IMG/VR virus record: IMGVR_UViG_2896589216_000005
From: a virus
Lineage: Duplodnaviria > Heunggongvirae > Uroviricota > Caudoviricetes
Strand: one strand, 5' to 3'
DNA: 52,416 nucleotides
The position numbers and the translations under genes were made by a program. The notes under the pieces are model-generated. The model had not been told where the DNA came from, did not search any database, and saw nothing but the letters and a program-made list of their open reading frames with translations. Shown one piece after another: positions 1 through 51,083 of the stretch; position 1 is the first letter of the stretch, and each line of letters starts with the position of its first letter.

Positions 1-1131
1 TCAAATGACCAGTTTTTTCCATTCCTTACCGCGTGCGTCGTTGTAAATATCGGTCATTTTTTGATTCGAATGGCCTAGCAAAATTTTGGTATCAACCCCC
101 TGCTCTCTGAACAATCGCTCTGATAAAGATCTCTGCTCATGGAAAGAGGGAGGGGTGCCATTAGCACGCCAGTTGTAATCCACAGAATCCCGGGCTTTTT
201 TAAATGCAACGGTTAATGTTGCTGGCTTAACCATCCCGCCGCGCTTAGCTGTCCCTTTCGCGTGATGGTGGTGCAATAGCCACGGACTAAGAACGCAATC
301 GCGGCAGGATGACACCACATCATCCAGGGTGAGATTTAATTTATCGCAACGCAGAGCCAGAGGGATGGCAATCCGGGTTCCTGTTTTTTGCTGTTCGACA
401 TGAAGATAACCATCCCGGATATCCGAAAATTGCATTTTGCAAATATCTGAAAGGCGCTGGCCTGTCATCAGTGCCAGCAGCATACCGCGCTGTAAAAAGT
501 AACCATCCTTTTCCGCTGCGTTATAAATCATCATCCACTCATCAAAAGTCAGTCGCTGTCTTGATATCCGCACCTGCGGTTTTTTTGCCGATTCTGCAGG
601 GTTAAAGCCTGGCGGGACATCGCCCGTTTGCTGAGCTTCCCGGAAAACATCGATCAGTACTTTCCTGAAAATTTGTCCCATTCTGTTATGTCCTCTGGCC
701 TTGTACTCTTCCAGTACTGATACCACATCTTTTACGGTTATGACATCTAACGGTCTGGTGCCAAAACGTTCATCAAATACCCTGAGAGGGGCCGCTTTCT
801 GTTTCAGCGTGTTGAGTTTGATCTCGCCGTTTTCATATCTTTCCTGTTGAATTTTTCTGTAATTATTCAGAAAAATGGTAACGGTTGATGAACCGCCGGT
901 ATCACTAATAATTTTCTCCTGCAGACTGCGCATTTGTTCCATTTGCTGCCGGGCAAGACGGCTGTTCGCTTCTGCTGCAATAGTTTCTGCCAGTTTCTGG
1001 TCAATACTGCCGAGACCGTGATTTTTGCCTGTTATGGGATGCCTGTAACGCCAGTAAACTTTGTTATTTCTTTTATCAAAATACGGAGATAATCCCGGAA
1101 CATCGGTTTTATATTTTCGCGGGCGCGCCAT
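1..1131 (-). CDS. int: Phage integrase (tyrosine recombinase), 376 aa
   Basis: Six-frame ORF; lambdoid integrase-like sequence, followed on the same strand by an excisionase-like ORF; sits at prophage left end. Confidence 0.88.
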   Translation of the reverse strand: MARPRKYKTDVPGLSPYFDKRNNKVYWRYRHPITGKNHGLGSIDQKLAETIAAEANSRLARQQMEQMRSLQEKIISDTGGSSTVTIFLNNYRKIQQERYENGEIKLNTLKQKAAPLRVFDERFGTRPLDVITVKDVVSVLEEYKARGHNRMGQIFRKVLIDVFREAQQTGDVPPGFNPAESAKKPQVRISRQRLTFDEWMMIYNAAEKDGYFLQRGMLLALMTGQRLSDICKMQFSDIRDGYLHVEQQKTGTRIAIPLALRCDKLNLTLDDVVSSCRDCVLSPWLLHHHHAKGTAKRGGMVKPATLTVAFKKARDSVDYNWRANGTPPSFHEQRSLSERLFREQGVDTKILLGHSNQKMTDIYNDARGKEWKKLVI

Positions 1132-1357
1132 CTTCCAGTATCCTCTTCAAAGCAGGGTGATCTGTGGCGATCACCTCCGGCTTGTTTACCATTCCGACAA
1201 AGCGAGCTTGCGGATCCACTCGCCAGCGTCTTCCAACTTTTTTGGGGAGAGGAAATATCATTCCGGCTTTAGCGTATTTACTTAACGTACTCGGAGTTGG
1301 GACCGGTTCACTGAATTCCTCTTTTGCCCACTCAGTGAGCAGAATAAGTCTTGCCAT
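1109..1357 (-). CDS. xis: Excisionase (Xis/AlpA-like small DNA-binding protein), 82 aa
   Basis: Small basic ORF immediately upstream of and overlapping int start; KVGRRWRV-type motif. Confidence 0.7.
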   Translation of the reverse strand: MARLILLTEWAKEEFSEPVPTPSTLSKYAKAGMIFPLPKKVGRRWRVDPQARFVGMVNKPEVIATDHPALKRILEDGAPAKI

Positions 1358-1421: not shown

Positions 1422-3896
1422 TTAAAAATCAGCCTGATTCGGGATCAGTTTTTGCCAGATAACTGAAACGTATTTTGCCTGGTAACGGGCGTCATCAAGT
1501 GCATTATGGCGCTCACCTTCGAATGGAATAGCCGTTCTGGCATCGAAGTCTATGGCTTTCCCCAGCTCAACGATTGTGCGTACATCGCGATCGTTGTAGT
1601 AACGCCACGGGCAGGGGATCCCCTGCCGTTCGTATGAACGGCGCAAAATCGTGTTGTCGAAGTTGGCTCCATTTCCCCAGACCTGAACAAAAAATTCACC
1701 GGAGTTTTCGTCGATAAATTCCCGCAATTGTAACAGTGCATCATCTAACGGGATTTCATCGGTCATAATGGCAGATTGCGCTTCGCGTGATTGCTTAAGC
1801 CACCATTTAATGGTGTCCCGATCAATGACCCCGCCAGCAGTTTCCAGATCGATAGTCTTACTAAATTCCGGTCCCATATCTCCGGTTTGCGGATCGAAAA
1901 ATATTGCACCTATTGAGATGATCGGGGCATCAGGATTTTTTCCCATGGTTTCAAGGTCGATCATTAGATGGTCACACGTCCTGCTGGTGGATGTGATTTC
2001 TTGATGACCGTTCACCTTAATTGAGTGATCTGCCGTCTCGCCAGTTTCATTATCGCTATCGTGATGCTGATTGCCGTCAGTGTTCTCCTTGTGTGGATGT
2101 TCAGCGCCTTCCATTTCCTCCGGATCATCTTCCTGAACTTCAACCTGATACTCTTCATCGAATGTTTCCTGGTATGTTGCGTCGCCCATCACCGCGCCAC
2201 AATCAGGGCAGTTGCCGCCGCCGGTCTGACCGCAGGCGGTGCAGACTTTTTCCACTTCCTGTTGCGCCACTGGTTCAGGCTGTTTCGTTTCTGGCTCGTT
2301 TTGTAACGCATTTGGGCTGTTTTGTTCCGCTTTCTGGCCGTTCTGTTCCGTTTCTTGCTGGTTCTGATTCACTGAATCGCGGGTTTCAATCCCCTTCACC
2401 CATTTCGGATCATTCGGGTCGCTAATCCCTGCAACAAATTCACCACGTGATACAGCAAGCAAATTATTGGCGTCAGGCTGGCTGATATTGGCTGCCTGCA
2501 TAATTTTGTTTACTTCGTCAGCGGTAACTTTTACCGGCTCTGGTTGTGCGATCGTGTCAGATGCACCAGTATTTTGTTGTGAACCTGAGTACGTGCCGTT
2601 TTTACGTGCGAAGTATTCCTCTTTTGTGATTTCCGTAGCTCCCAGGGCCAGTGCTTTTTCCAGACCAGAAAGTTTGTTTGCGCGACCGTATTTTTCGCCG
2701 TCCTTATCGGTGAAAAGGAAGTAGAACGGTCCCTCACGCTCTACAGATGGTTCGTCTTCCACTTCGCATTCGGTTTTTTCGTTGTCCGGCATTGCCGTTT
2801 CCACTGCATCAGTTTCTGGTACTGGTGACGGGAGAGTACCAGCTGTGCCCTGATTTGTTCCTTCGTCATCTTCAAACACGCCCTTGGTAGTCAGGTATTC
2901 AGTGATGTATTTGTTCAGTGCTACGGGATCTTTGTGAATGTCGATCGGACGCTCACGGACAAGGCCAAAAATAGTCTGACGGTCGTAGCGAACGGCATCG
3001 GGTTGTTTGCGCATTGATGCGGAAATGCGCTTCCAGTCTTCGCGATCTTTGTCGATAACTTCATTTTTTGCCCAGCGATGGATGCTGCCGTCAATGTTTC
3101 CGGTATCAATATCGCCAGGCCAGAGAGCGTAGGCCAGTTCTTCATCCAGCGTTTTCCATGTCTGCTTGTATTCGCGACAAATGGCGGCAGTGACTGGGTT
3201 GATTTTTCCTGCTGAGTTTTCAGTGTTCTGTTGATTGACTCTGGCGCTGGCGAGATCAACAACAGACGTGTATTTTCCAGTCTCTTTGCGCTCTGCGTCC
3301 TGCCGTTTTTTCCAGTTACGTAATTCAGCCTGAATTTCGGGCCATTTGGCACCCGGATTACATTTGTGTTTAACCCATCCGATAGCGAACAGTTTGCGTT
3401 CCGGATACATAGCGTTAATTTCAGGCGTTTTCATCAGTGCTTCAACGATATGCCCGTCAAAGGTAGCAACGTCTTCCTGCAGTAATTCCTGCGCGTCAAT
3501 CGCCATATCAACGGTGATGTTTTCACATGTACCGAACTTAACCAGGACCGCGTTCTGTACTTCAAGGGACAGCTTGTCAAAATTGACGTTCATCGGATCG
3601 GATTCTGGTTCGACCGGAATAAAGGAAGCGGATTCCTCATCCCAGCGGTTTTCCTGCATATATTCAGCATCCCAGGAATCGAGGGCAGGGCGGGGTATAC
3701 CGGGTTTATCCTCGCAGACAAGAAATTTATAAGCGCAGTCCTGAGCAGCCGGATAATGTTCCAGGAATTGCCAGTGAAATTTTGCGCGGGCGCGACGTTC
3801 ATCACCGGCTTCAATGGCAGTGGCTACAGCGACGGCACCTTCTTCCTTTATTGCCTGTTCGTCCGGAATGGCGGCGCAAATAAAGACTTTACTCAT
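1422..3896 (-). CDS. Large exonuclease-family protein: C-terminal DEDDh (DnaQ-like) 3-5 exonuclease domain, central CxxC...CxxC zinc ribbon, acidic linker
   Basis: 824-aa ORF; C-terminal MIDLETMG...HNALDDARY motifs typical of DnaQ-like exonucleases; occupies the recombination-module position next to xis. Confidence 0.7.
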   Translation of the reverse strand: MSKVFICAAIPDEQAIKEEGAVAVATAIEAGDERRARAKFHWQFLEHYPAAQDCAYKFLVCEDKPGIPRPALDSWDAEYMQENRWDEESASFIPVEPESDPMNVNFDKLSLEVQNAVLVKFGTCENITVDMAIDAQELLQEDVATFDGHIVEALMKTPEINAMYPERKLFAIGWVKHKCNPGAKWPEIQAELRNWKKRQDAERKETGKYTSVVDLASARVNQQNTENSAGKINPVTAAICREYKQTWKTLDEELAYALWPGDIDTGNIDGSIHRWAKNEVIDKDREDWKRISASMRKQPDAVRYDRQTIFGLVRERPIDIHKDPVALNKYITEYLTTKGVFEDDEGTNQGTAGTLPSPVPETDAVETAMPDNEKTECEVEDEPSVEREGPFYFLFTDKDGEKYGRANKLSGLEKALALGATEITKEEYFARKNGTYSGSQQNTGASDTIAQPEPVKVTADEVNKIMQAANISQPDANNLLAVSRGEFVAGISDPNDPKWVKGIETRDSVNQNQQETEQNGQKAEQNSPNALQNEPETKQPEPVAQQEVEKVCTACGQTGGGNCPDCGAVMGDATYQETFDEEYQVEVQEDDPEEMEGAEHPHKENTDGNQHHDSDNETGETADHSIKVNGHQEITSTSRTCDHLMIDLETMGKNPDAPIISIGAIFFDPQTGDMGPEFSKTIDLETAGGVIDRDTIKWWLKQSREAQSAIMTDEIPLDDALLQLREFIDENSGEFFVQVWGNGANFDNTILRRSYERQGIPCPWRYYNDRDVRTIVELGKAIDFDARTAIPFEGERHNALDDARYQAKYVSVIWQKLIPNQADF

Positions 3897-3991: not shown

Positions 3992-4180
3992 TTATCCAGC
4001 CGGTATTTCGTTATTCAGGTTCAGCGATACTTTTTTTAACGGGAGGCATTCACCGGGGATTTTTTGTTCGTCCCTTACCTGAATGCAGGATGACTTACTG
4101 TCATAAATTCCGGTAATCACATTTTGTGGCTCACCCGTTATAAGAAAAACGGTCATCACCAGTGCAAATGCTGAAGTCAC
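3992..4180 (-). CDS. Small protein with hydrophobic N-terminus downstream of dicB (YdfD-like by position), 62 aa
   Basis: ORF whose GTG start overlaps the dicB stop (GTGA); position matches ydfD of the Qin dicB operon. Confidence 0.45.
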   Translation of the reverse strand: MTSAFALVMTVFLITGEPQNVITGIYDSKSSCIQVRDEQKIPGECLPLKKVSLNLNNEIPAG

Positions 4181-4344
4181 TGCTGTTCTCCGATAATACC
4201 AAGTTCAAGAAGGGCAATTCTGGAAAGTATGGAATTATCATTGAGAAGATAAGGTTCATATTTTCTCATCTTAATGGCATCTTCCGTAAACTCCCGGTTA
4301 CTGAGCAGAACACCAATATCAAAACAACCGGTAATGACTCCAAC

Positions 4345-4722
4345 TTATTGATAGTGTTTTATGTTCAGATAATGCCCGATGACTTTGTCATGCAGCTCCA
4401 CCGATTTTGAGAACGACAGCGACTTCCGTCCCAGCCGTGCCAGGTGCTGCCTCAGATTCAGGTTATGCCGCTCAATTCGCTGCGTATATCGCTTGCTGAT
4501 TACGTGCAGCTTTCCCTTCAGGCGGGATTCATACAGTGGCCAGCCATCCGTCATCCATATCACCACGTCAAAGGGTGACAGCAAGCTCATAAGACGCCCC
4601 AGCGTCGCCATAGTGCGTTCACCGAATACGTGCGCAACAACCGTCTTCCGGAGCCTGTCATACGCGTAAAACAGCCAGCGCTGGCGCGATTTAGCCCCGA
4701 CGTATCCCCACTGTTCGTCCAT
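4345..4722 (-). CDS. insB: IS1 InsB (transposase frame, normally expressed as InsAB fusion by -1 frameshift)
   Basis: 125-aa ORF matching IS1 InsB. Confidence 0.9.
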
Positions 4723-4766
4723 TTCCGCGCAGACGATGACGTCACTGCCCGGCTGTATACGCGAGG

Positions 4767-5042
4767 TTACCGACTGCGGCCTGAGTTTTTTAAGTGACGT
4801 AAAATCGTGTTGAGGCTAACGCCCATAATGCGTGCAGTTGCCCGGCATCCAACGCCATTCATGGCCATATCAATAATTTTCTGGTGCGTACCGGGTTGAG
4901 AAGCGGTGTAAGTGAACTGCAGTTGCCATGTTTTACGGCAGTGAGAGCAGAGATAGCGCTGATGTCCGGCAGTGCTTTTGCCGTTACGCACCACCCCGTC
5001 AGTAGCTGAACAGGAGGGACAGCTGATAGAAACAGAAGCCAC
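4767..5042 (-). CDS. insA: IS1 InsA
   Basis: 91-aa ORF matching IS1 InsA (zinc-finger N-terminus CPSC...CSHC). Confidence 0.92.
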
Positions 5043-5315
5043 TGGAGCACCTCAAAAACACCATCATACACTAAATCAGTAAGTTGGCAGCATCACCAAA
5101 CAACCTTCAGACGTATTAACGTTTGGTAATAACGTTTCCATTATCGCGTCCTCAACAATGAATTTTGTGATGCGGTGCCTGGTGCCTCCAGGTGACGTTA
5201 ACCAGTTAACAATTAACGCCGGATACAGAGAATCCACCCATAACACTGTTTTTGGTTTTAACTGTTCTGCGTGCGCTCAGCCGCATTCACCACATCACAA
5301 AATTCACTTTAAAAA

Positions 5316-5368
5316 GGGCGGCAGAGCAGTCACGGAGTAAAACTGATACCGCCAAACGTCACCAGAAA
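5316..5368 (-). ncRNA. dicF: DicF small regulatory RNA (53 nt) followed by U-tract
   Basis: Reverse complement of 5316-5368 reads UUUCUGGUGACGUUUGGCGGUAUCAGUUUUACUCCGUGACUGCUCUGCCGCCC followed by UUUUU, matching the DicF sequence as recalled. Confidence 0.88.
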
Positions 5369-6401: not shown

Positions 6402-6809
6402 TTACTGATGTTTGTTACGTTTGCGAGCTTCTAGTAGCTCGGTGAATAGGCGATTAAAATTCTCAACGCGGGCACGGAGTTCGCTGATTTGTGCTTGCTG
6501 CTCTGATTTTGGAAGTGCGCGATACAATCGCAACATCTCCAACTCATCTTCCGATAAGTCTAAGGCGCTGTTGAGTGCTACTGGTGGATCTGGTGTTTTA
6601 TCCTCGTCACCAAACAGTATCCAAGTTGGTGAACATTGCAATACCTCAGCCAGGCGATGCAAATTTTGCCCGCGCGGGGCTGTATGGTCGCTTTCCCATA
6701 GTGAAATTGATGAGCCAGATACGCCAGCGGCTTTGCTTAAATCGTTTTGACTTAAACCAACCTGTTTGCGTCTTTCTCTAATTCGTTGACCTAAAGTTTT
6801 CTCGTTCAT
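6402..6809 (-). CDS. dicA: DicA-like HTH repressor (XRE family), 135 aa
   Basis: N-terminal HTH (QRIRERRKQVGLSQNDLSKAAGVS) and LQCSPTWILFGDEDK segment match DicA; divergent from a Cro-like gene. Confidence 0.85.
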   Translation of the reverse strand: MNEKTLGQRIRERRKQVGLSQNDLSKAAGVSGSSISLWESDHTAPRGQNLHRLAEVLQCSPTWILFGDEDKTPDPPVALNSALDLSEDELEMLRLYRALPKSEQQAQISELRARVENFNRLFTELLEARKRNKHQ

Positions 6810-13094: not shown

Positions 13095-13293
13095 CGACTT
13101 TTACCAGAGAGCAGTTAATAGCTCACGCAGAGGAGACTATTGAAGCACAGAGACTGTGCATACCGGGCACAATCGACCATGACATCATCCGCACATATAA
13201 GATAGACTGGCCCCCTGAATCTCCAGACAACCAGTATCACTTAAATAAGTGATAGTCTTAATACTAGTTTTTAGACTAGTCATTGGAGTACAG

Positions 13294-13659
13294 ATGATTG
13301 ATGTCTTAGGGCCGGAGAAACGCAGACGGCGTACCACACAGGAAAAGATCGCAATTGTTCAGCAGAGCTTTGAACCGGGGATGACGGTCTCCCTCGTTGC
13401 CCGGCAACATGGTGTAGCAGCCAGCCAGTTATTTCTCTGGCGTAAGCAATACCAGGAAGGAAGTCTTACTGCTGTGGCCGCCGGAGAACAGGTTGTTCCT
13501 GCCTCTGAACTTGCTGCCGCCATGAAGCAGATTAAAGAACTCCAGCGCCTGCTCGGCAAGAAAACGATGGAAAATGAACTCCTCAAAGAAGCCGTTGAAT
13601 ATGGACGGGCAAAAAAGTGGATAGCGCACGCGCCCTTATTGCCCGGGGATGGGGAGTAA
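13294..13659 (+). CDS. insC: IS2 InsC (orfA)
   Basis: 121-aa ORF from [14 protein letters not shown]6G slippery site before stop. Confidence 0.9.
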
Positions 13660-14522
13660 GCTTAGTCAGCCGTTGTCTCCGGGTGTCGCGTGCGCAGTTG
13701 CACGTCATTCTCAGACGAACCGATGACTGGATGGATGGCCGCCGCAGTCGTCACACTGATGATACGGATGTGCTTCTCCGTATACACCATGTTATCGGAG
13801 AGCTGCCCACGTATGGTTATCGTCGGGTATGGGCGCTGCTTCGCAGACAGGCAGAACTTGATGGTATGCCTGCGATCAATGCCAAACGTGTTTACCGGAT
13901 CATGCGCCAGAATGCGCTGTTGCTTGAGCGAAAACCTGCTGTACCACCATCGAAACGGGCACATACAGGCAGAGTGGCCGTGAAAGAAAGCAATCAGCGA
14001 TGGTGCTCTGACGGGTTCGAGTTCTGCTGTGATAACGGAGAGAGACTGCGTGTCACGTTCGCGCTGGACTGCTGTGATCGTGAGGCACTGCACTGGGCGG
14101 TGACTACCGGCGGCTTCAACAGTGAAACAGTACAGGACGTCATGCTGGGAGCGGTGGAACGCCGCTTCGGCAACGATCTTCCGTCGTCTCCAGTGGAGTG
14201 GCTGACGGATAATGGTTCATGCTACCGGGCTAATGAAACACGCCAGTTCGCCCGGATGTTGGGACTTGAACCGAAGAACACGGCGGTGCGGAGTCCGGAG
14301 AGTAACGGAATAGCAGAGAGCTTCGTGAAAACGATAAAGCGTGACTACATCAGTATCATGCCCAAACCAGACGGGTTAACGGCAGCAAAGAACCTTGCAG
14401 AGGCGTTCGAGCATTATAACGAATGGCATCCGCATAGTGCGCTGGGTTATCGCTCGCCACGGGAATATCTGCGGCAGCGGGCTTGTAATGGGTTAAGTGA
14501 TAACAGATGTCTGGAAATATAG
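13617..14522 (+). CDS. insD: IS2 InsD (orfB transposase, DDE)
   Basis: 301-aa ORF in the -1 frame relative to insC. Confidence 0.9.
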
Positions 14523-14850: not shown

Positions 14851-15061
14851 AAACGGTTTGCGGGAAAAGGAGAGTTAAGTAGAATTGCAGCGGGTGCTTG
14901 AGGCTATCTGTCTCAGGCATGAACACCAAAAGGCAGATAGAGAAAAGCCCCAGTTAACATTACGCGTCCGGCAAGACGCTTAACATTAATCTGAGGCCAT
15001 ATCTATGCTCTACACACGTAGGTTAGCCTCTTACGTGCCGAAAGGCAAGGAGAAGCAGGCT

Positions 15062-15217
15062 ATGAAGCAGCAAAAGGCGATGCTAATCGCCCTGATCGTC
15101 ATCTGTTTAACCGTCATTGTGACGGCACTGGTAACGAGGAAAGACCTCTGCGAGGTACGAATCCGAACCGGCCAGACGGAGGTCGCTGTCTTCACAGCTT
15201 ACGAACCTGAGGAGTAA
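15062..15217 (+). CDS. hok: Hok/Gef-family membrane toxin (51 aa)
   Basis: MKQQKAMLIALIVICLTVIVTALVTRKDLCEVRIRTGQTEVAVFTAYEPEE matches the Hok family signature (closest recalled member HokD/RelF). Confidence 0.8.
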   Translation: MKQQKAMLIALIVICLTVIVTALVTRKDLCEVRIRTGQTEVAVFTAYEPEE

Positions 15218-19956: not shown

Positions 19957-20032
19957 GGCCCTTTAGCTCAGTGGTGAGAGCGAGCGACTCATAATCGCCA
20001 GGTCGCTGGTTCAAATCCAGCAAGGGCCACCA
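19957..20032 (+). tRNA. ileZ: tRNA-Ile2 (anticodon CAU, lysidine type; ileZ-like)
   Basis: 76-nt cloverleaf by hand folding; anticodon loop CUCAUAA; near-identical to recalled ileX; encodes 3-prime CCA. Confidence 0.85.
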
Positions 20033-20039
20033 TCACATA

Positions 20040-20116
20040 CCGCCATTAGCTCATCGGGATAGAGCGCCAGCCTTCGAAGCTGGTTGCGCGGGGTTCGAGT
20101 TCTCGATGGCGGTCCA
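20040..20116 (+). tRNA. argO: tRNA-Arg (anticodon UCG)
   Basis: 77-nt cloverleaf by hand folding; anticodon loop CUUCGAA; T-loop TTCGAGT; encodes CCA. Confidence 0.78.
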
Positions 20117-20373: not shown

Positions 20374-20570
20374 ATTGTCTGGCTGCCGGAGAATTTGTTA
20401 AAAATTACATCGCATGGTGAATCCCCCTCAGCGGCGGGGCATCTGGCAAAGTGTATGATCCAGAGAACATGCAAATTCAGTAGACAGGCTGAATTTACCG
20501 GGAGGCACCTGGCACCATGCGACAGACAGAAATTAGGCTATACTTCAGCCCCTCTCCGGAGGGGCTTTTC
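20374..20570 (+). repeat. Structured direct-repeat unit A (about 200 bp) ending in an 8-bp GC hairpin plus T-run
   Basis: Shares conserved blocks with unit B; terminal hairpin AGCCCCTC-TCCG-GAGGGGCT followed by TTTTCT. Confidence 0.5.
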
Positions 20571-20842
20571 TGTGCAGGATGTGTCACAGTTTCCTGAATT
20601 CTGAGTACTGTCCTGTTACTCAGGGTGCTATATTTTCTGACGTGATGAAAGTCTGCCGGAAGGCGGAACGTATCGGAAATGACCCAGTAGAGAAAACGTT
20701 GACTCAGATACCGATGCTGAGTTACCGGGAAACCGGCATCACATGACCGCTATCCTTCCAGGCTCGCTCCGGCGGGCCTTTTTACTGCAGAAAACAGTTT
20801 TCCCGTAAAATGCTACGTTGCTCATAATTCAGGCTGGCGATT

Positions 20843-21035
20843 ATTGTCTGGCCAGCGGGAAGTTTGTTAAAAAATTTCGCATGGTGAATCCCCCTGTGCG
20901 GAGGGGCAATCAGCGAGTAGGTATATGGGATAATCGCGGATTCAGGTGCTGGTACTGAATTCACCGGGAGGCACCCGGCACCATGCAATGGCACATAGCG
21001 CCACTCTCCAGCCCCTCTCCGGAGGGGCTGTTTAT
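20843..21035 (+). repeat. Structured direct-repeat unit B
   Basis: Same block order as unit A, 469 bp downstream; identical terminal hairpin. Confidence 0.5.
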
Positions 21036-21064
21036 ATTGATTTTGTCAGATGTGAGTAAACTCC

Positions 21065-50499: not shown

Positions 50500-51083
50500 T
50501 GGCATTCAGAATGAGTGAACAAGCACGGACCATAAAAATTTATAATCTGCTGGCCGGAACTAATGAATTTATTGGTGAAGGTGACGCATATATTCCGCCT
50601 CATACAGGTCTGCCAGCAAACAGTACCGATATTGCACCACCAGATATTCCTGCTGGCTTTGTGGCTGTTTTCAACAGTGATGAGGCATCGTGGCATCTCG
50701 TTGAAGACCATCGGGGTAAAACGGTTTATGACGTAGCGTCAGGGGACGAGTTATTTATTTCTGAACTCGGTCCGTTACCGGAAAATGTTACCTGGTTATC
50801 GCCGGAAGGGGAGTTTCAGAAGTGGAACGGCACAGCCTGGGTGAAGGATACGGAAGCAGAAAAAATGTTCCGGATCCGGGAGGCGGAAGAAACAAAAAAC
50901 AACCTGATGCAGGTAGCCAGTGAGCATATTGCGCCGCTTCAGGATGCTGCAGATCTGGAAATTGCAACGGAGGAAGAAACCTCATTGCTGGAAGCCTGGA
51001 AAAAGTATCGGGTGTTGCTGAACCGTGTTGATACATCAACTGCACCTGATATTGAGTGGCCTACGAACCCTGTCAGGGAGTAA
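50499..51083 (+). CDS. tfa: Tail fiber assembly protein Tfa
   Basis: 194-aa ORF near-identical in pattern to lambda Tfa; start overlaps the stf stop (TAATG). Confidence 0.92.

What the first reader, a model, noticed from the sequence alone, without database searches (positions are those of the whole stretch)
1422..3896. Single 824-aa exonuclease occupies the recombination-module slot
Instead of an exo/bet or recET pair, one large protein with a C-terminal DEDDh exonuclease, a central zinc ribbon and a long acidic linker follows xis. No obvious annealing-protein partner is present, and the N-terminal 500 residues are uncharacterised.
Basis: partly seen in the sequence, partly recalled or inferred. 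Interest (0 to 1): 0.38.

Follow-up and report, generated by a model that had tools for sequence, protein, structure and literature searches.

The report
Prophage RecE-like protein with 3'-5' exonuclease
This is the intact form of the very common E. coli prophage gene ydfE: a RecE-like scaffold whose usual 5'-3' nuclease, and its RecT partner, are replaced by a DexA-type 3'-5' exonuclease. The gene and its partner-less layout are already catalogued, but its job is still untested.

Summary
A single 824-aa ORF lies at 1422-3896 on the minus strand, between ydfD/dicB and xis-int. It has a complete DEDDh domain, a CxxC-x7-CxxC element and an acidic linker. No annealase, SSB or anti-RecBCD gene was found in the early region.

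It is not new. The exact protein is in GenBank and carries Pfam YdfE_N, YdfE_C and Rv2179c-like. Its first 256 aa are 88% identical to the K-12 Qin pseudogene ydfE, and aa 262-626 are homologous to the non-catalytic part of Rac RecE. At least 80% of the gene is present in 3511 of 5426 complete E. coli genomes. Phage Tritos has an 89% identical copy. Tritos is the published prototype of a nuclease-only, annealase-less, Chi-rich recombination module, and this window fits that type with 14 Chi sites against 2 expected.

Across relatives the same head carries one of three tails:
- a RecE-type nuclease, followed by recT;
- this DEDDh domain, followed directly by xis-int;
- a Rad52-fold domain.

Best reading: a 3'-end-processing nuclease of the phage recombination system that works with host RecBCD/RecA. 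This is inferred, not shown. The main rival is a defence nuclease like the published EcD/HREX. Interest is low to moderate.

The parts
1422..3896 (-). Whole gene: 824-aa YdfE-family / RecE-like protein with a DEDDh tail (stop codon 1422-1424)
   Evidence: ORF list. Full-length match to PHROG 2082. The exact protein is in NCBI assemblies with Pfam YdfE_N, YdfE_C and Rv2179c-like.
3282..3896 (-). aa 1-205: YdfE_N domain, an alpha/beta lobe plus a helical lobe
3165..3281 (-). aa 206-244: disordered linker
   Evidence: pLDDT below 50 over aa 207-243. dN/dS 0.83.
2877..3164 (-). aa 245-340: helical YdfE_C domain, the core shared with RecE and all family classes
   Evidence: pLDDT about 78-92. dN/dS 0.11. 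Found in RecE-headed and YdfE-headed relatives. Aligns with RecE from aa 278.
2730..2876 (-). aa 341-389: acidic, Pro/Thr-rich disordered linker
   Evidence: pLDDT below 50 over aa 341-385. dN/dS 0.68.
2592..2729 (-). aa 390-435: mini-domain of beta-hairpins and helices (GPFYF...GRANK motif)
   Evidence: pLDDT about 77-86. Lowest dN/dS of the protein, 0.04. Conserved in YdfE-headed and Rad52-tailed relatives. Absent from the RecE alignment.
2019..2468 (-). aa 477-626: patch closely related to Rac RecE aa 456-588; includes the RGEFV.GISDPNDPKWV motif, the Cys motif and most of the acidic linker
   Evidence: 67-70% aa identity to RecE and 77% nt identity over gene nt 1430-1870. The patch ends 17 aa before the DEDDh domain.
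2199..2243 (-). aa 552-566: CxxC-x7-CxxC zinc-ribbon-like motif
   Evidence: Sequence read directly. Shared with RecE. Absent from other family representatives. dN/dS 0.12.
1971..2186 (-). aa 571-642: acidic linker
   Evidence: 22 D/E in 72 residues, net charge -19. dN/dS 0.95.
1425..1970 (-). aa 643-824: DEDDh 3'-5' exonuclease domain (Rv2179c-like / DexA-like)
   Evidence: PF16473 E 2e-67. Catalytic D647, E649, D747, H797, D802 align with T4 DexA. PDB sequence hit 8kel (227-aa chain deposited as 'Exodeoxyribonuclease', read as T4 DexA), E 1.4e-6. dN/dS 0.16.
1109..1357 (-). xis (excisionase), immediately downstream in the transcript
   Evidence: Pfam Exc.
1..1131 (-). int (tyrosine integrase). 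The same protein lies next to ompW in public genomes.
   Evidence: Pfam Arm-DNA-bind_1 plus Phage_integrase on the identical public locus. ompW is adjacent there.
3992..4180 (-). ydfD-like DUF1482 gene, immediately upstream in the transcript
   Evidence: PHROG 1092. Pfam DUF1482. The same position is annotated ydfD in Tritos and ATCC 25922.
4330..5097 (-). IS1 inserted in dicB, upstream of the gene in the early-left operon (left boundary approximate)
   Evidence: insA/insB ORFs. IS1 inverted repeat at 5097 and the split DicB match. Related prophages lack the IS.
6402..6809 (-). cI/DicA-type repressor that marks the start of the early-left region
   Evidence: Pfam HTH_3. Annotated dicA in the PPompW phage.

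Best explanation
What it is. The gene is the intact version of the E. coli prophage gene ydfE, a modular member of the RecE family. The head has several folded parts joined by disordered linkers:
- YdfE_N, aa 1-205;
- YdfE_C, aa 245-340;
- a mini-domain, aa 390-435;
- a RecE-like patch, aa 477-626, that contains a Cys4 motif.
The head is a non-catalytic scaffold shared with Rac RecE.

What differs from RecE. RecE carries a PD-(D/E)XK 5'-3' nuclease that works with RecT. This protein instead carries a catalytically complete DexA/Rv2179c-type DEDDh 3'-5' exonuclease. The recT gene is absent.

Expression (inferred). The gene is probably transcribed with the early-left operon (cI side, DicF, dicB, ydfD, exo, xis, int) on induction.

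Proposed mechanism (inferred, not shown). The scaffold brings the nuclease to phage DNA ends or recombination intermediates. There the nuclease removes 3' tails or flaps. It needs no phage annealase because this phage type has no anti-RecBCD gene and is rich in correctly oriented Chi sites, so it would recombine through host RecBCD and RecA. One specific version is that trimming 3' overhangs makes ends blunt enough for RecBCD to load.
For: Domain anatomy:
- Domain matches and catalytic residues.
- Homology of the head to YdfE and RecE.
- AF2 model with three confident domains separated by disordered linkers.
- Folded parts have dN/dS 0.04-0.16 and linkers 0.7-0.95, so every folded part is under selection.

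Tail swapping:
- Among family representatives, YdfE-type and RecE-type heads each occur with a DEDDh tail and with a PD-(D/E)XK tail.

The partner follows the tail, not the head:
- The one PD-(D/E)XK-tailed YdfE-headed locus examined has an overlapping recT, as RecE does in Rac.
- DEDDh-tailed loci run straight into xis-int.

Links to recombination modules:
- A stand-alone homologue, 56% identical, lies between Erf-SSB and Abc2 in Salmonella phage NM-3.
- DnaQ-like nucleases are reported as lambdoid Rec-module members (PMC12315714).
- T4 DexA has a reported role in intron homing (PMC12153337).

Fit to the Tritos type:
- Tritos carries an 89% identical homologue in the same operon layout.
- No annealase, SSB or anti-RecBCD gene was found here.
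- The window has 14 Chi sites against 2.0 expected. Ten are in the orientation that is active in lambda, and all lie to the left of Nu1/gpA.
- 3' tails limit helicase reloading on DNA ends in E. coli, and host 3'-5' exonucleases remove them (PMC5592934).
Against: - No experiment bears on this protein, so substrate (DNA or RNA) and polarity are inferred from family membership.
- 3'-5' digestion destroys the 3' tails that RecA and annealases use. Such nucleases usually inhibit recombination, as PMC12315714 itself notes.
- The host already has ExoI, ExoVII, ExoX and SbcCD, so a phage-encoded blunting enzyme looks redundant.
- The NM-3 stand-alone homologue coexists with an anti-RecBCD gene. A RecBCD-helper role therefore cannot be general for the domain.
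- Zheng et al. do not count DnaQ-type genes next to int as Rec-module members unless they are contiguous with other Rec genes.
- The head has no informative structural relative, so its targeting role is a guess.
- In this particular prophage an IS1 upstream may reduce expression.
Confidence: 0.45

Rival explanations
1. Defence nuclease (HREX-like). The DEDDh tail attacks the DNA of superinfecting phages that carry modified bases. This is what the published E. coli DexA homologue EcD does to 5hmC-containing T4 DNA. The prophage gene would then be kept because it protects the lysogen.
For: - Kang et al. 2025 (PMC12153337) show that plasmid-borne EcD degrades T4 DNA and protects E. coli.
- A 189-aa protein that matches the EcD forward primer, and the reverse primer except for one base, is 38% identical (E 2e-37) to window aa 645-817.
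- The phage Evi homologue of the window protein (VUF53858.1) is in their list of DexA homologues.
- The gene is intact and under purifying selection in most E. coli genomes, often in several copies. That would fit a host benefit.
Against: - The two residues proposed to read 5hmC are not kept. DexA W152 aligns with Y767, and D169 aligns with K or A depending on the alignment. The EcD-like protein has W and E at these positions. Alignment at 27-38% identity is uncertain in these loops.
- The D90 equivalent, whose loss defines the EcD state, is still D.
- The gene lies in the repressed early-left operon with no promoter-like site of its own.
- A defence role does not explain a 640-aa head shared with RecE and with Rad52-fold fusions.
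- There is no PADLOC hit, but that library predates HREX.
- The EcD-like gene is itself an early-operon gene of a P2-like prophage.
Confidence: 0.17
2. Decaying remnant. The gene is a RecE derivative left behind after recT was lost. It is carried passively by mostly defective prophages and has no present function.
For: - Asadulghani et al. 2009 scored the ExoVIII-type recombination system as intact in only one of seven O157 Sakai prophages (PMC2669165).
- K-12 ydfE is cut by IS2.
- Frameshifted copies exist.
- An IS1 lies just upstream here.
Against: - Overall dN/dS is 0.22, and 0.04-0.16 in the folded domains, across copies with dS up to 0.41.
- All catalytic residues are intact.
- The gene is full length in plaque-forming or induced phages: Tritos, mEp460_ev081, HannyBb, Evi and PhiR42_1.
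- The DEDDh tail is a gain, not a loss. The same architecture recurs on a different head in Leclercia.
Confidence: 0.05
3. RNA-directed or nucleotide-salvage enzyme. The tail acts as a 3'-5' exoribonuclease like Rv2179c, for example on host or phage transcripts or sRNAs. Alternatively it degrades oligonucleotides to feed phage DNA synthesis, like the scavenging role of T4 DexA.
For: - The Pfam family is named after the M. tuberculosis exoribonuclease Rv2179c, and PGAP names some copies '3'-5' exoribonuclease domain-containing protein'.
- There is a weak RNase_T match.
- DexA scavenges host DNA.
- The operon encodes the processed sRNA DicF.
Against: - The only solved relative found by sequence is the DNA exonuclease DexA.
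- Close stand-alone homologues sit among Erf, SSB and Abc2.
- The head is shared with DNA recombination proteins.
- Temperate lambdoid phages are not known to degrade the host chromosome (general knowledge).
Confidence: 0.1

Closest known systems
YdfE of the E. coli K-12 Qin prophage (b1577, pseudogene); Pfam YdfE_N PF27430 and YdfE_C PF27432; PHROG 2082
   Same: Aa 1-256 are 88% identical to K-12 YdfE. The operon position is the same: dicA, ydfABC, DicF, dicB, ydfD, ydfE, int. The protein matches PHROG 2082 over its full length.
   Different: K-12 ydfE is truncated by IS2 after about 256 aa and lacks everything downstream. The window copy is complete.
RecE (exonuclease VIII) of the Rac prophage, with its partner RecT
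   Same: Same slot in the early-left operon. Aa 262-626 are homologous to RecE aa 278-591, including the Cys4 motif and acidic linker, with 67-70% identity over aa 471-626. In both proteins the non-catalytic N-terminal region has no known function (PMC11611040).
   Different: The PD-(D/E)XK 5'-3' nuclease domain (RecE about aa 564-866) is replaced by a DEDDh 3'-5' domain. There is no recT. The first 260 aa belong to a different head family: YdfE_N rather than Exonuc_VIII PF06630.
T4 DexA, M. tuberculosis Rv2179c and stand-alone phage DEDDh exonucleases (PF16473), including EcD/HREX
   Same: Same fold family and the same five catalytic residues. The tail is 56-58% identical to stand-alone exonucleases of phages NM-3 and Flotzy. 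It is 38% identical to an EcD-like protein.
   Different: Those proteins are stand-alone, 180-230 aa. Here the domain is the tail of an 824-aa protein. The proposed 5hmC-reading residues of DexA and EcD are not kept.
Tritos-type lambdoid recombination module (Zheng et al. 2025, Genome Res, PMC12315714, Table 1 class B)
   Same: Nuclease present; annealase, SSB and anti-RecBCD absent; many top-strand Chi sites clustered toward the right end. Tritos itself encodes an 89% identical protein in an identical operon.
   Different: None in kind. This copy is a prophage with an IS1 in dicB. The held text of the paper does not describe the domain make-up of the Tritos nuclease.

Membership tests
RecE/RecT two-component recombinase (exonuclease VIII) | C-terminal PD-(D/E)XK 5'-3' nuclease domain homologous to RecE aa about 564-866 | tested here: not met
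   No similarity to RecE beyond aa 591. The RecE nuclease query hits other family members but not this cluster. The NCBIfam exodeoxyribonuclease VIII model scores 274 bits against a cut-off of 1269.
RecE/RecT two-component recombinase (exonuclease VIII) | Adjacent annealase gene (recT) | tested here: not met
   The gene is flanked by ydfD and xis. No annealase was found among 20 early-region ORFs. recT is present next to recE in Rac and next to the one PD-(D/E)XK-tailed relative examined.
RecE/RecT two-component recombinase (exonuclease VIII) | Non-catalytic N-terminal region homologous to RecE | tested here: met
   Aa 262-626 match RecE aa 278-591, E 4e-60. Aa 1-260 do not match.
YdfE family (Pfam PF27430 YdfE_N plus PF27432 YdfE_C) | Matches to both Pfam models; orthology with K-12 ydfE | tested here: met
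   Precomputed Pfam hits on the identical protein. 88% identity over 256 aa to b1577. The models are not in the local Pfam copy, so they were not re-scored here.
DEDDh (DnaQ-like) exonucleases, Rv2179c-like PF16473 / T4 DexA | Domain match above the curated threshold | tested here: met
   226.6 bits against a cut-off of 27, profile positions 2-177 of 177.
DEDDh (DnaQ-like) exonucleases, Rv2179c-like PF16473 / T4 DexA | Catalytic D, E, D, H, D all present | tested here: met
   D647, E649, D747, H797 and D802 fall in invariant columns with DexA D7, E9, D119, H186 and D191.
DEDDh (DnaQ-like) exonucleases, Rv2179c-like PF16473 / T4 DexA | 3'-5' exonuclease activity and substrate (DNA or RNA) | not testable with these tools
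   Needs a biochemical assay.
HREX / EcD modification-dependent defence exonuclease (Kang et al. 2025) | Trp and acidic residue equivalent to DexA W152 and D169 (5hmC recognition) | tested here: not met
   Y767 and K/A at the aligned positions. The EcD-like protein has W and E. The alignment is at 27-38% identity, so confidence is moderate.
HREX / EcD modification-dependent defence exonuclease (Kang et al. 2025) | Loss of the tetramer-forming Asp (DexA D90, Ala in EcD) | tested here: inconclusive
   The aligned residue is Asp in the window protein. The alignment in this region is gapped.
HREX / EcD modification-dependent defence exonuclease (Kang et al. 2025) | Protection against T4-like phages; selective cleavage of modified DNA | not testable with these tools
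   Needs plating and nuclease assays.
Tritos-type Rec module (PMC12315714) | Nuclease gene present; no annealase, SSB or anti-RecBCD gene | tested here: met
Tritos-type Rec module (PMC12315714) | [quoted passage not shown] | tested here: met
   Ten plus-strand and four minus-strand Chi sites against 2.0 expected. None lies in 27.6-52.4 kb and twelve lie in 14.8-26.8 kb. Nu1/gpA start at 27651.

The most novel reading that the evidence does not exclude
The YdfE/RecE head may be a general platform that places interchangeable end-processing tails on phage DNA: a 5'-3' nuclease, a 3'-5' nuclease or a Rad52-fold annealase. In its DEDDh form it would be a phage-encoded helper of the host RecBCD-Chi pathway. 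It would trim 3'-tailed ends so that RecBCD can load on Chi-rich phage DNA that carries no annealase and no anti-RecBCD gene. To my knowledge no phage protein with that role has been described.
Probability: 0.2. Interest if true: 0.6.

Novelty: already known. Interest (0 to 1): 0.3.

Why it matters
The gene is among the most widespread prophage genes of E. coli. It covers at least 80% of its length in 65% of complete genomes, with up to 10 matching places per genome, and it is under clear purifying selection. Yet nobody has shown what it does. It also breaks the usual rule that a phage recombination nuclease is 5'-3' and comes with an annealase.

Working out its role would have three consequences:
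- It would show how Chi-rich, annealase-less lambdoid phages such as Tritos recombine.
- It would give the first functional handle on the unexplained N-terminal region of RecE, which improves linear-linear recombineering.
- It would test whether DexA-like prophage nucleases act in recombination, in defence, or in both.

For the scan itself the result is mostly negative: the feature is real but already annotated and catalogued.

Tried and rejected
- Annealase in the N-terminal half: no Pfam, PHROG or NCBIfam annealase match. The AF2 model of aa 1-445 has no Rad52, RecT or Erf-like element.
- Partner elsewhere in the window: 20 early-region ORFs scanned, none found.
- Defence-system libraries: no PADLOC hit.
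- Zinc ribbon as a family hallmark: rejected, because it occurs only in the query's own cluster and in Rac RecE.
- Own promoter for lysogenic expression: none above chance.
- First homologue search: it returned only near-identical E. coli fragments, so a second search was seeded with a distant relative.
- Literature on ydfE or on Rv2179c-like phage nucleases: no functional study of this protein.
- Supplementary tables of PMC12315714 are not held as text, so I could not read how that paper typed the Tritos nuclease.
Full report
**1. What is in the sequence**

The ORF at 1422-3896 on the minus strand encodes 824 aa from an ATG preceded by GAGG. On the minus strand the early-left region reads as follows:
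- cI/DicA-type repressor, 6402-6809;
- two small ORFs;
- DicF sRNA, 5316-5367;
- dicB, split by an IS1 at about 4330-5097;
- ydfD-like DUF1482 gene, 3992-4180;
- this gene;
- xis, 1109-1357;
- int, 1-1131.

So the gene does occupy the place where lambda has exo-bet-gam and Rac has recE-recT. In the direction of transcription it precedes xis.

**2. Domain anatomy**

The tail:
- Aa 643-814 match Pfam PF16473 (Rv2179c-like) over the whole profile, E 2e-67.
- The only solved relative found by sequence is PDB 8kel, a 227-aa 'Exodeoxyribonuclease' chain that I read as T4 DexA.
- In an alignment with DexA and four phage homologues, D647, E649, D747, H797 and D802 fall in invariant columns with DexA D7, E9, D119, H186 and D191. 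The DEDDh active site is complete.

The head, from an AlphaFold2 model of aa 1-445 built on 43 sequences:
- Three confident units: aa 1-205, aa 245-340 and aa 390-435.
- They are separated by segments with pLDDT below 50.

Selection, from five full-length copies with dS up to 0.41:
- dN/dS is 0.09 for aa 1-205, 0.11 for aa 245-340 and 0.04 for aa 390-435.
- It is 0.12 for the Cys motif and 0.16 for the DEDDh domain.
- It is 0.68-0.95 for the three linkers.
- Every folded piece is therefore under selection, and the linkers are spacers.

Other elements:
- The Cys motif is C552, C555, C563 and C566. It is real, but it occurs only in this E. coli cluster and in Rac RecE.
- The acidic linker (aa 571-642) has net charge -19.

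**3. The N-terminal part is not an orphan**

- Aa 1-256 are 88% identical to the K-12 Qin pseudogene ydfE, which IS2 truncates.
- Aa 262-626 align with RecE aa 278-591, E 4e-60. Identity is 24% over the YdfE_C domain.
- Over aa 471-626 identity rises to 67-70%, with 77% nucleotide identity over gene nt 1430-1870. This patch ends 17 aa before the DEDDh domain. It looks like the joint of a tail swap within the acidic linker.
- The identical protein is in several NCBI assemblies, where it carries Pfam YdfE_N (PF27430), YdfE_C (PF27432) and Rv2179c-like.
- It matches PHROG 2082 end to end.
- The function of this region is unknown. [quoted passage not shown]

**4. How common the gene is**

- At least 80% of the gene is present in 3511 of 5426 complete E. 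coli genomes. There are up to 10 matching places per genome, nearly all chromosomal, annotated 'exonuclease' or '3'-5' exonuclease'.
- Full-length copies occur in the phages Tritos, mEp460_ev081, HannyBb, PhiR42_1 and Evi, and in the PPompW prophages of EHEC.
- The family is nevertheless narrow. Only 191 clusters at 50% identity match the head across 1.8 billion representatives. The named members found are all Enterobacterales.

**5. Modularity and the partner question**

Relatives were classified with the window's segments and RecE's segments as probes and with precomputed Pfam hits. YdfE-type and RecE-type heads each occur with either a DEDDh tail or a PD-(D/E)XK tail.

A third class of about 700-790 aa occurs in Pantoea, Enterobacter and Erwinia:
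- It is named 'exodeoxyribonuclease VIII' but has no nuclease Pfam domain.
- These may be the 'RecE-2' proteins that Zheng et al. say lack a nuclease domain. On this evidence they are fusions to an annealase fold.

Gene neighbourhoods show that the partner goes with the tail:
- The one PD-(D/E)XK-tailed, YdfE-headed gene examined is followed by an overlapping recT.
- DEDDh-tailed genes are followed directly by xis-int. This holds in E. coli, in Leclercia and in a JGI genome where the gene is again next to ompW.

The solitary state is therefore a stable arrangement and not an accident of this prophage.

**6. Context in the literature**

- Asadulghani et al. 2009 already noted that seven O157 Sakai prophages carry 'ExoVIII-type' systems in place of lambda Exo (PMC2669165).
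- Zheng et al. [quoted passage not shown]
- Their Table 1 lists a class with Tritos as prototype: nuclease present; annealase, SSB and anti-RecBCD absent; 7-21 top-strand Chi sites; three of four members with Chi clustered at the right end.
- Tritos has an 89% identical gene in the same operon.
- The window fits this class. It has 14 Chi sites against 2.0 expected, and none of 100 shuffles reached 14.
- Ten of the 14 are on the plus strand. All 14 lie to the left of the lambda-type terminase genes Nu1/gpA at 27651, and twelve lie within 14.8-26.8 kb.
- A uniform spread would put all 14 to the left of 27.65 kb with probability about 1e-4.
- A stand-alone homologue of the tail, 56% identical, lies between Erf-SSB and Abc2 in the P22-like phage NM-3.

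**7. How it most likely works**

Shown:
- the architecture;
- an intact DEDDh site;
- selection on all folded domains;
- no annealase in cis;
- membership of a Chi-rich phage type without anti-RecBCD;
- a head shared with a 5'-3' recombination nuclease and with a Rad52-fold domain.

Inferred:
- The head brings the tail to DNA ends or recombination intermediates.
- The tail trims 3' tails or flaps.
- Recombination itself runs through host RecBCD and RecA.

One concrete version is that removing 3' overhangs lets RecBCD load. In E. coli, 3' tails limit helicase reloading and host 3'-5' exonucleases remove them (PMC5592934). T4 DexA gives a precedent for a DexA-type nuclease in recombinational repair, namely intron homing.

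Weak points:
- the polarity paradox;
- redundancy with host enzymes;
- the NM-3 homologue coexisting with Abc2;
- no experimental data at all.

I put this reading at 0.45.

**8. Rivals**

(a) Defence.
- Kang et al. 2025 show that EcD, a stand-alone E. coli DexA homologue, degrades T4 DNA and protects cells.
- I recovered a primer-matched 189-aa EcD-like protein. It is 38% identical to the window's tail.
- That protein lies in the early operon of a P2-like prophage.
- The phage Evi homologue of the window protein is in their homologue list.
- However, the two proposed 5hmC-reading positions are Y and K/A here, against W and E in the EcD-like protein.
- The gene also has no promoter-like site of its own, and a defence role leaves the 640-aa head unexplained.
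- Estimate 0.17.

(b) RNA or nucleotide-salvage role: 0.10.

(c) Decaying remnant: 0.05. This is contradicted by dN/dS and by intact copies in viable phages.

The remaining probability is for functions not considered here.

**9. Verdict**

The feature is real, but it is already annotated, already has Pfam families, and belongs to a module type already published.

What this analysis adds:
- a domain map with selection evidence;
- the apparent tail-swap joint with recE;
- the rule that the annealase gene follows the tail type;
- the Rad52-fold third tail;
- the link to, and residue-level mismatch with, EcD/HREX.

Interest is low to moderate, because the function of a gene present in two thirds of E. 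coli genomes remains open.

Noticed in passing
window 4180-5141 (IS1 about 4330-5097): dicB is split by an IS1. DicB aa 1-15 lie at 5141-5097 and aa 8-62 at 4344-4180. The IS lies upstream of ydfD-exo-xis-int in the early-left transcript, so it may be polar on them. Related prophages lack it.
   Followed up: partly
window 1394-26784 (14 sites): Chi (GCTGGTGG) is about 7-fold over-represented: 14 sites against 2.0 expected. Ten are on the plus strand. None lies in the structural-gene half (27.6-52.4 kb) and twelve lie within 14.8-26.8 kb, next to the cos/Nu1 end. This is the pattern reported for lambdoid phages without anti-RecBCD.
   Followed up: yes
[not shown]
   Followed up: partly
L046:6401-6991 (IMG/VR contig), also L025, L030, L040, L041, L043: A 189-aa protein matching the published EcD (HREX anti-T4 exonuclease) primers lies in the early operon of a P2-like prophage, together with an integrase, a regulator, a DNA methyltransferase and a gpA-type nickase. 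The 'bacterial' defence gene therefore looks phage-borne.
   Followed up: partly
window 5316-5367 (-), 14892-15067 (+), 20382-20575 and 20851-21039 (+), 19957-20113 (+), 50842-51040 (+): Rfam hits above gathering score: DicF sRNA, sok antisense RNA next to a hok-like ORF at 15005-15217, two STnc100 sRNA copies, two tRNAs downstream of Q and the methylase, and IS009 RNA near the tail-fibre end.
   Followed up: no
window 2397-2447 (aa ~484-500): A short motif, RGE[FY]V.GISDP.DPKW, is conserved in Rac RecE, in this protein and in several Rad52-tailed relatives, although it lies in an otherwise variable stretch. It could be a docking peptide for a host or phage partner.
   Followed up: no
window 13249-14522 (+): Two overlapping transposase ORFs (PHROG 151/157, IS3-like layout) lie in the nin-like region between the replication genes and hok/sok. 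This is a second IS in the prophage besides IS1.
   Followed up: no
P0365 (824 aa): One relative combines a PAPS-reductase-like domain (PF01507) with the YdfE_N and YdfE_C domains. This is a further tail or head variant of the same scaffold.
   Followed up: no
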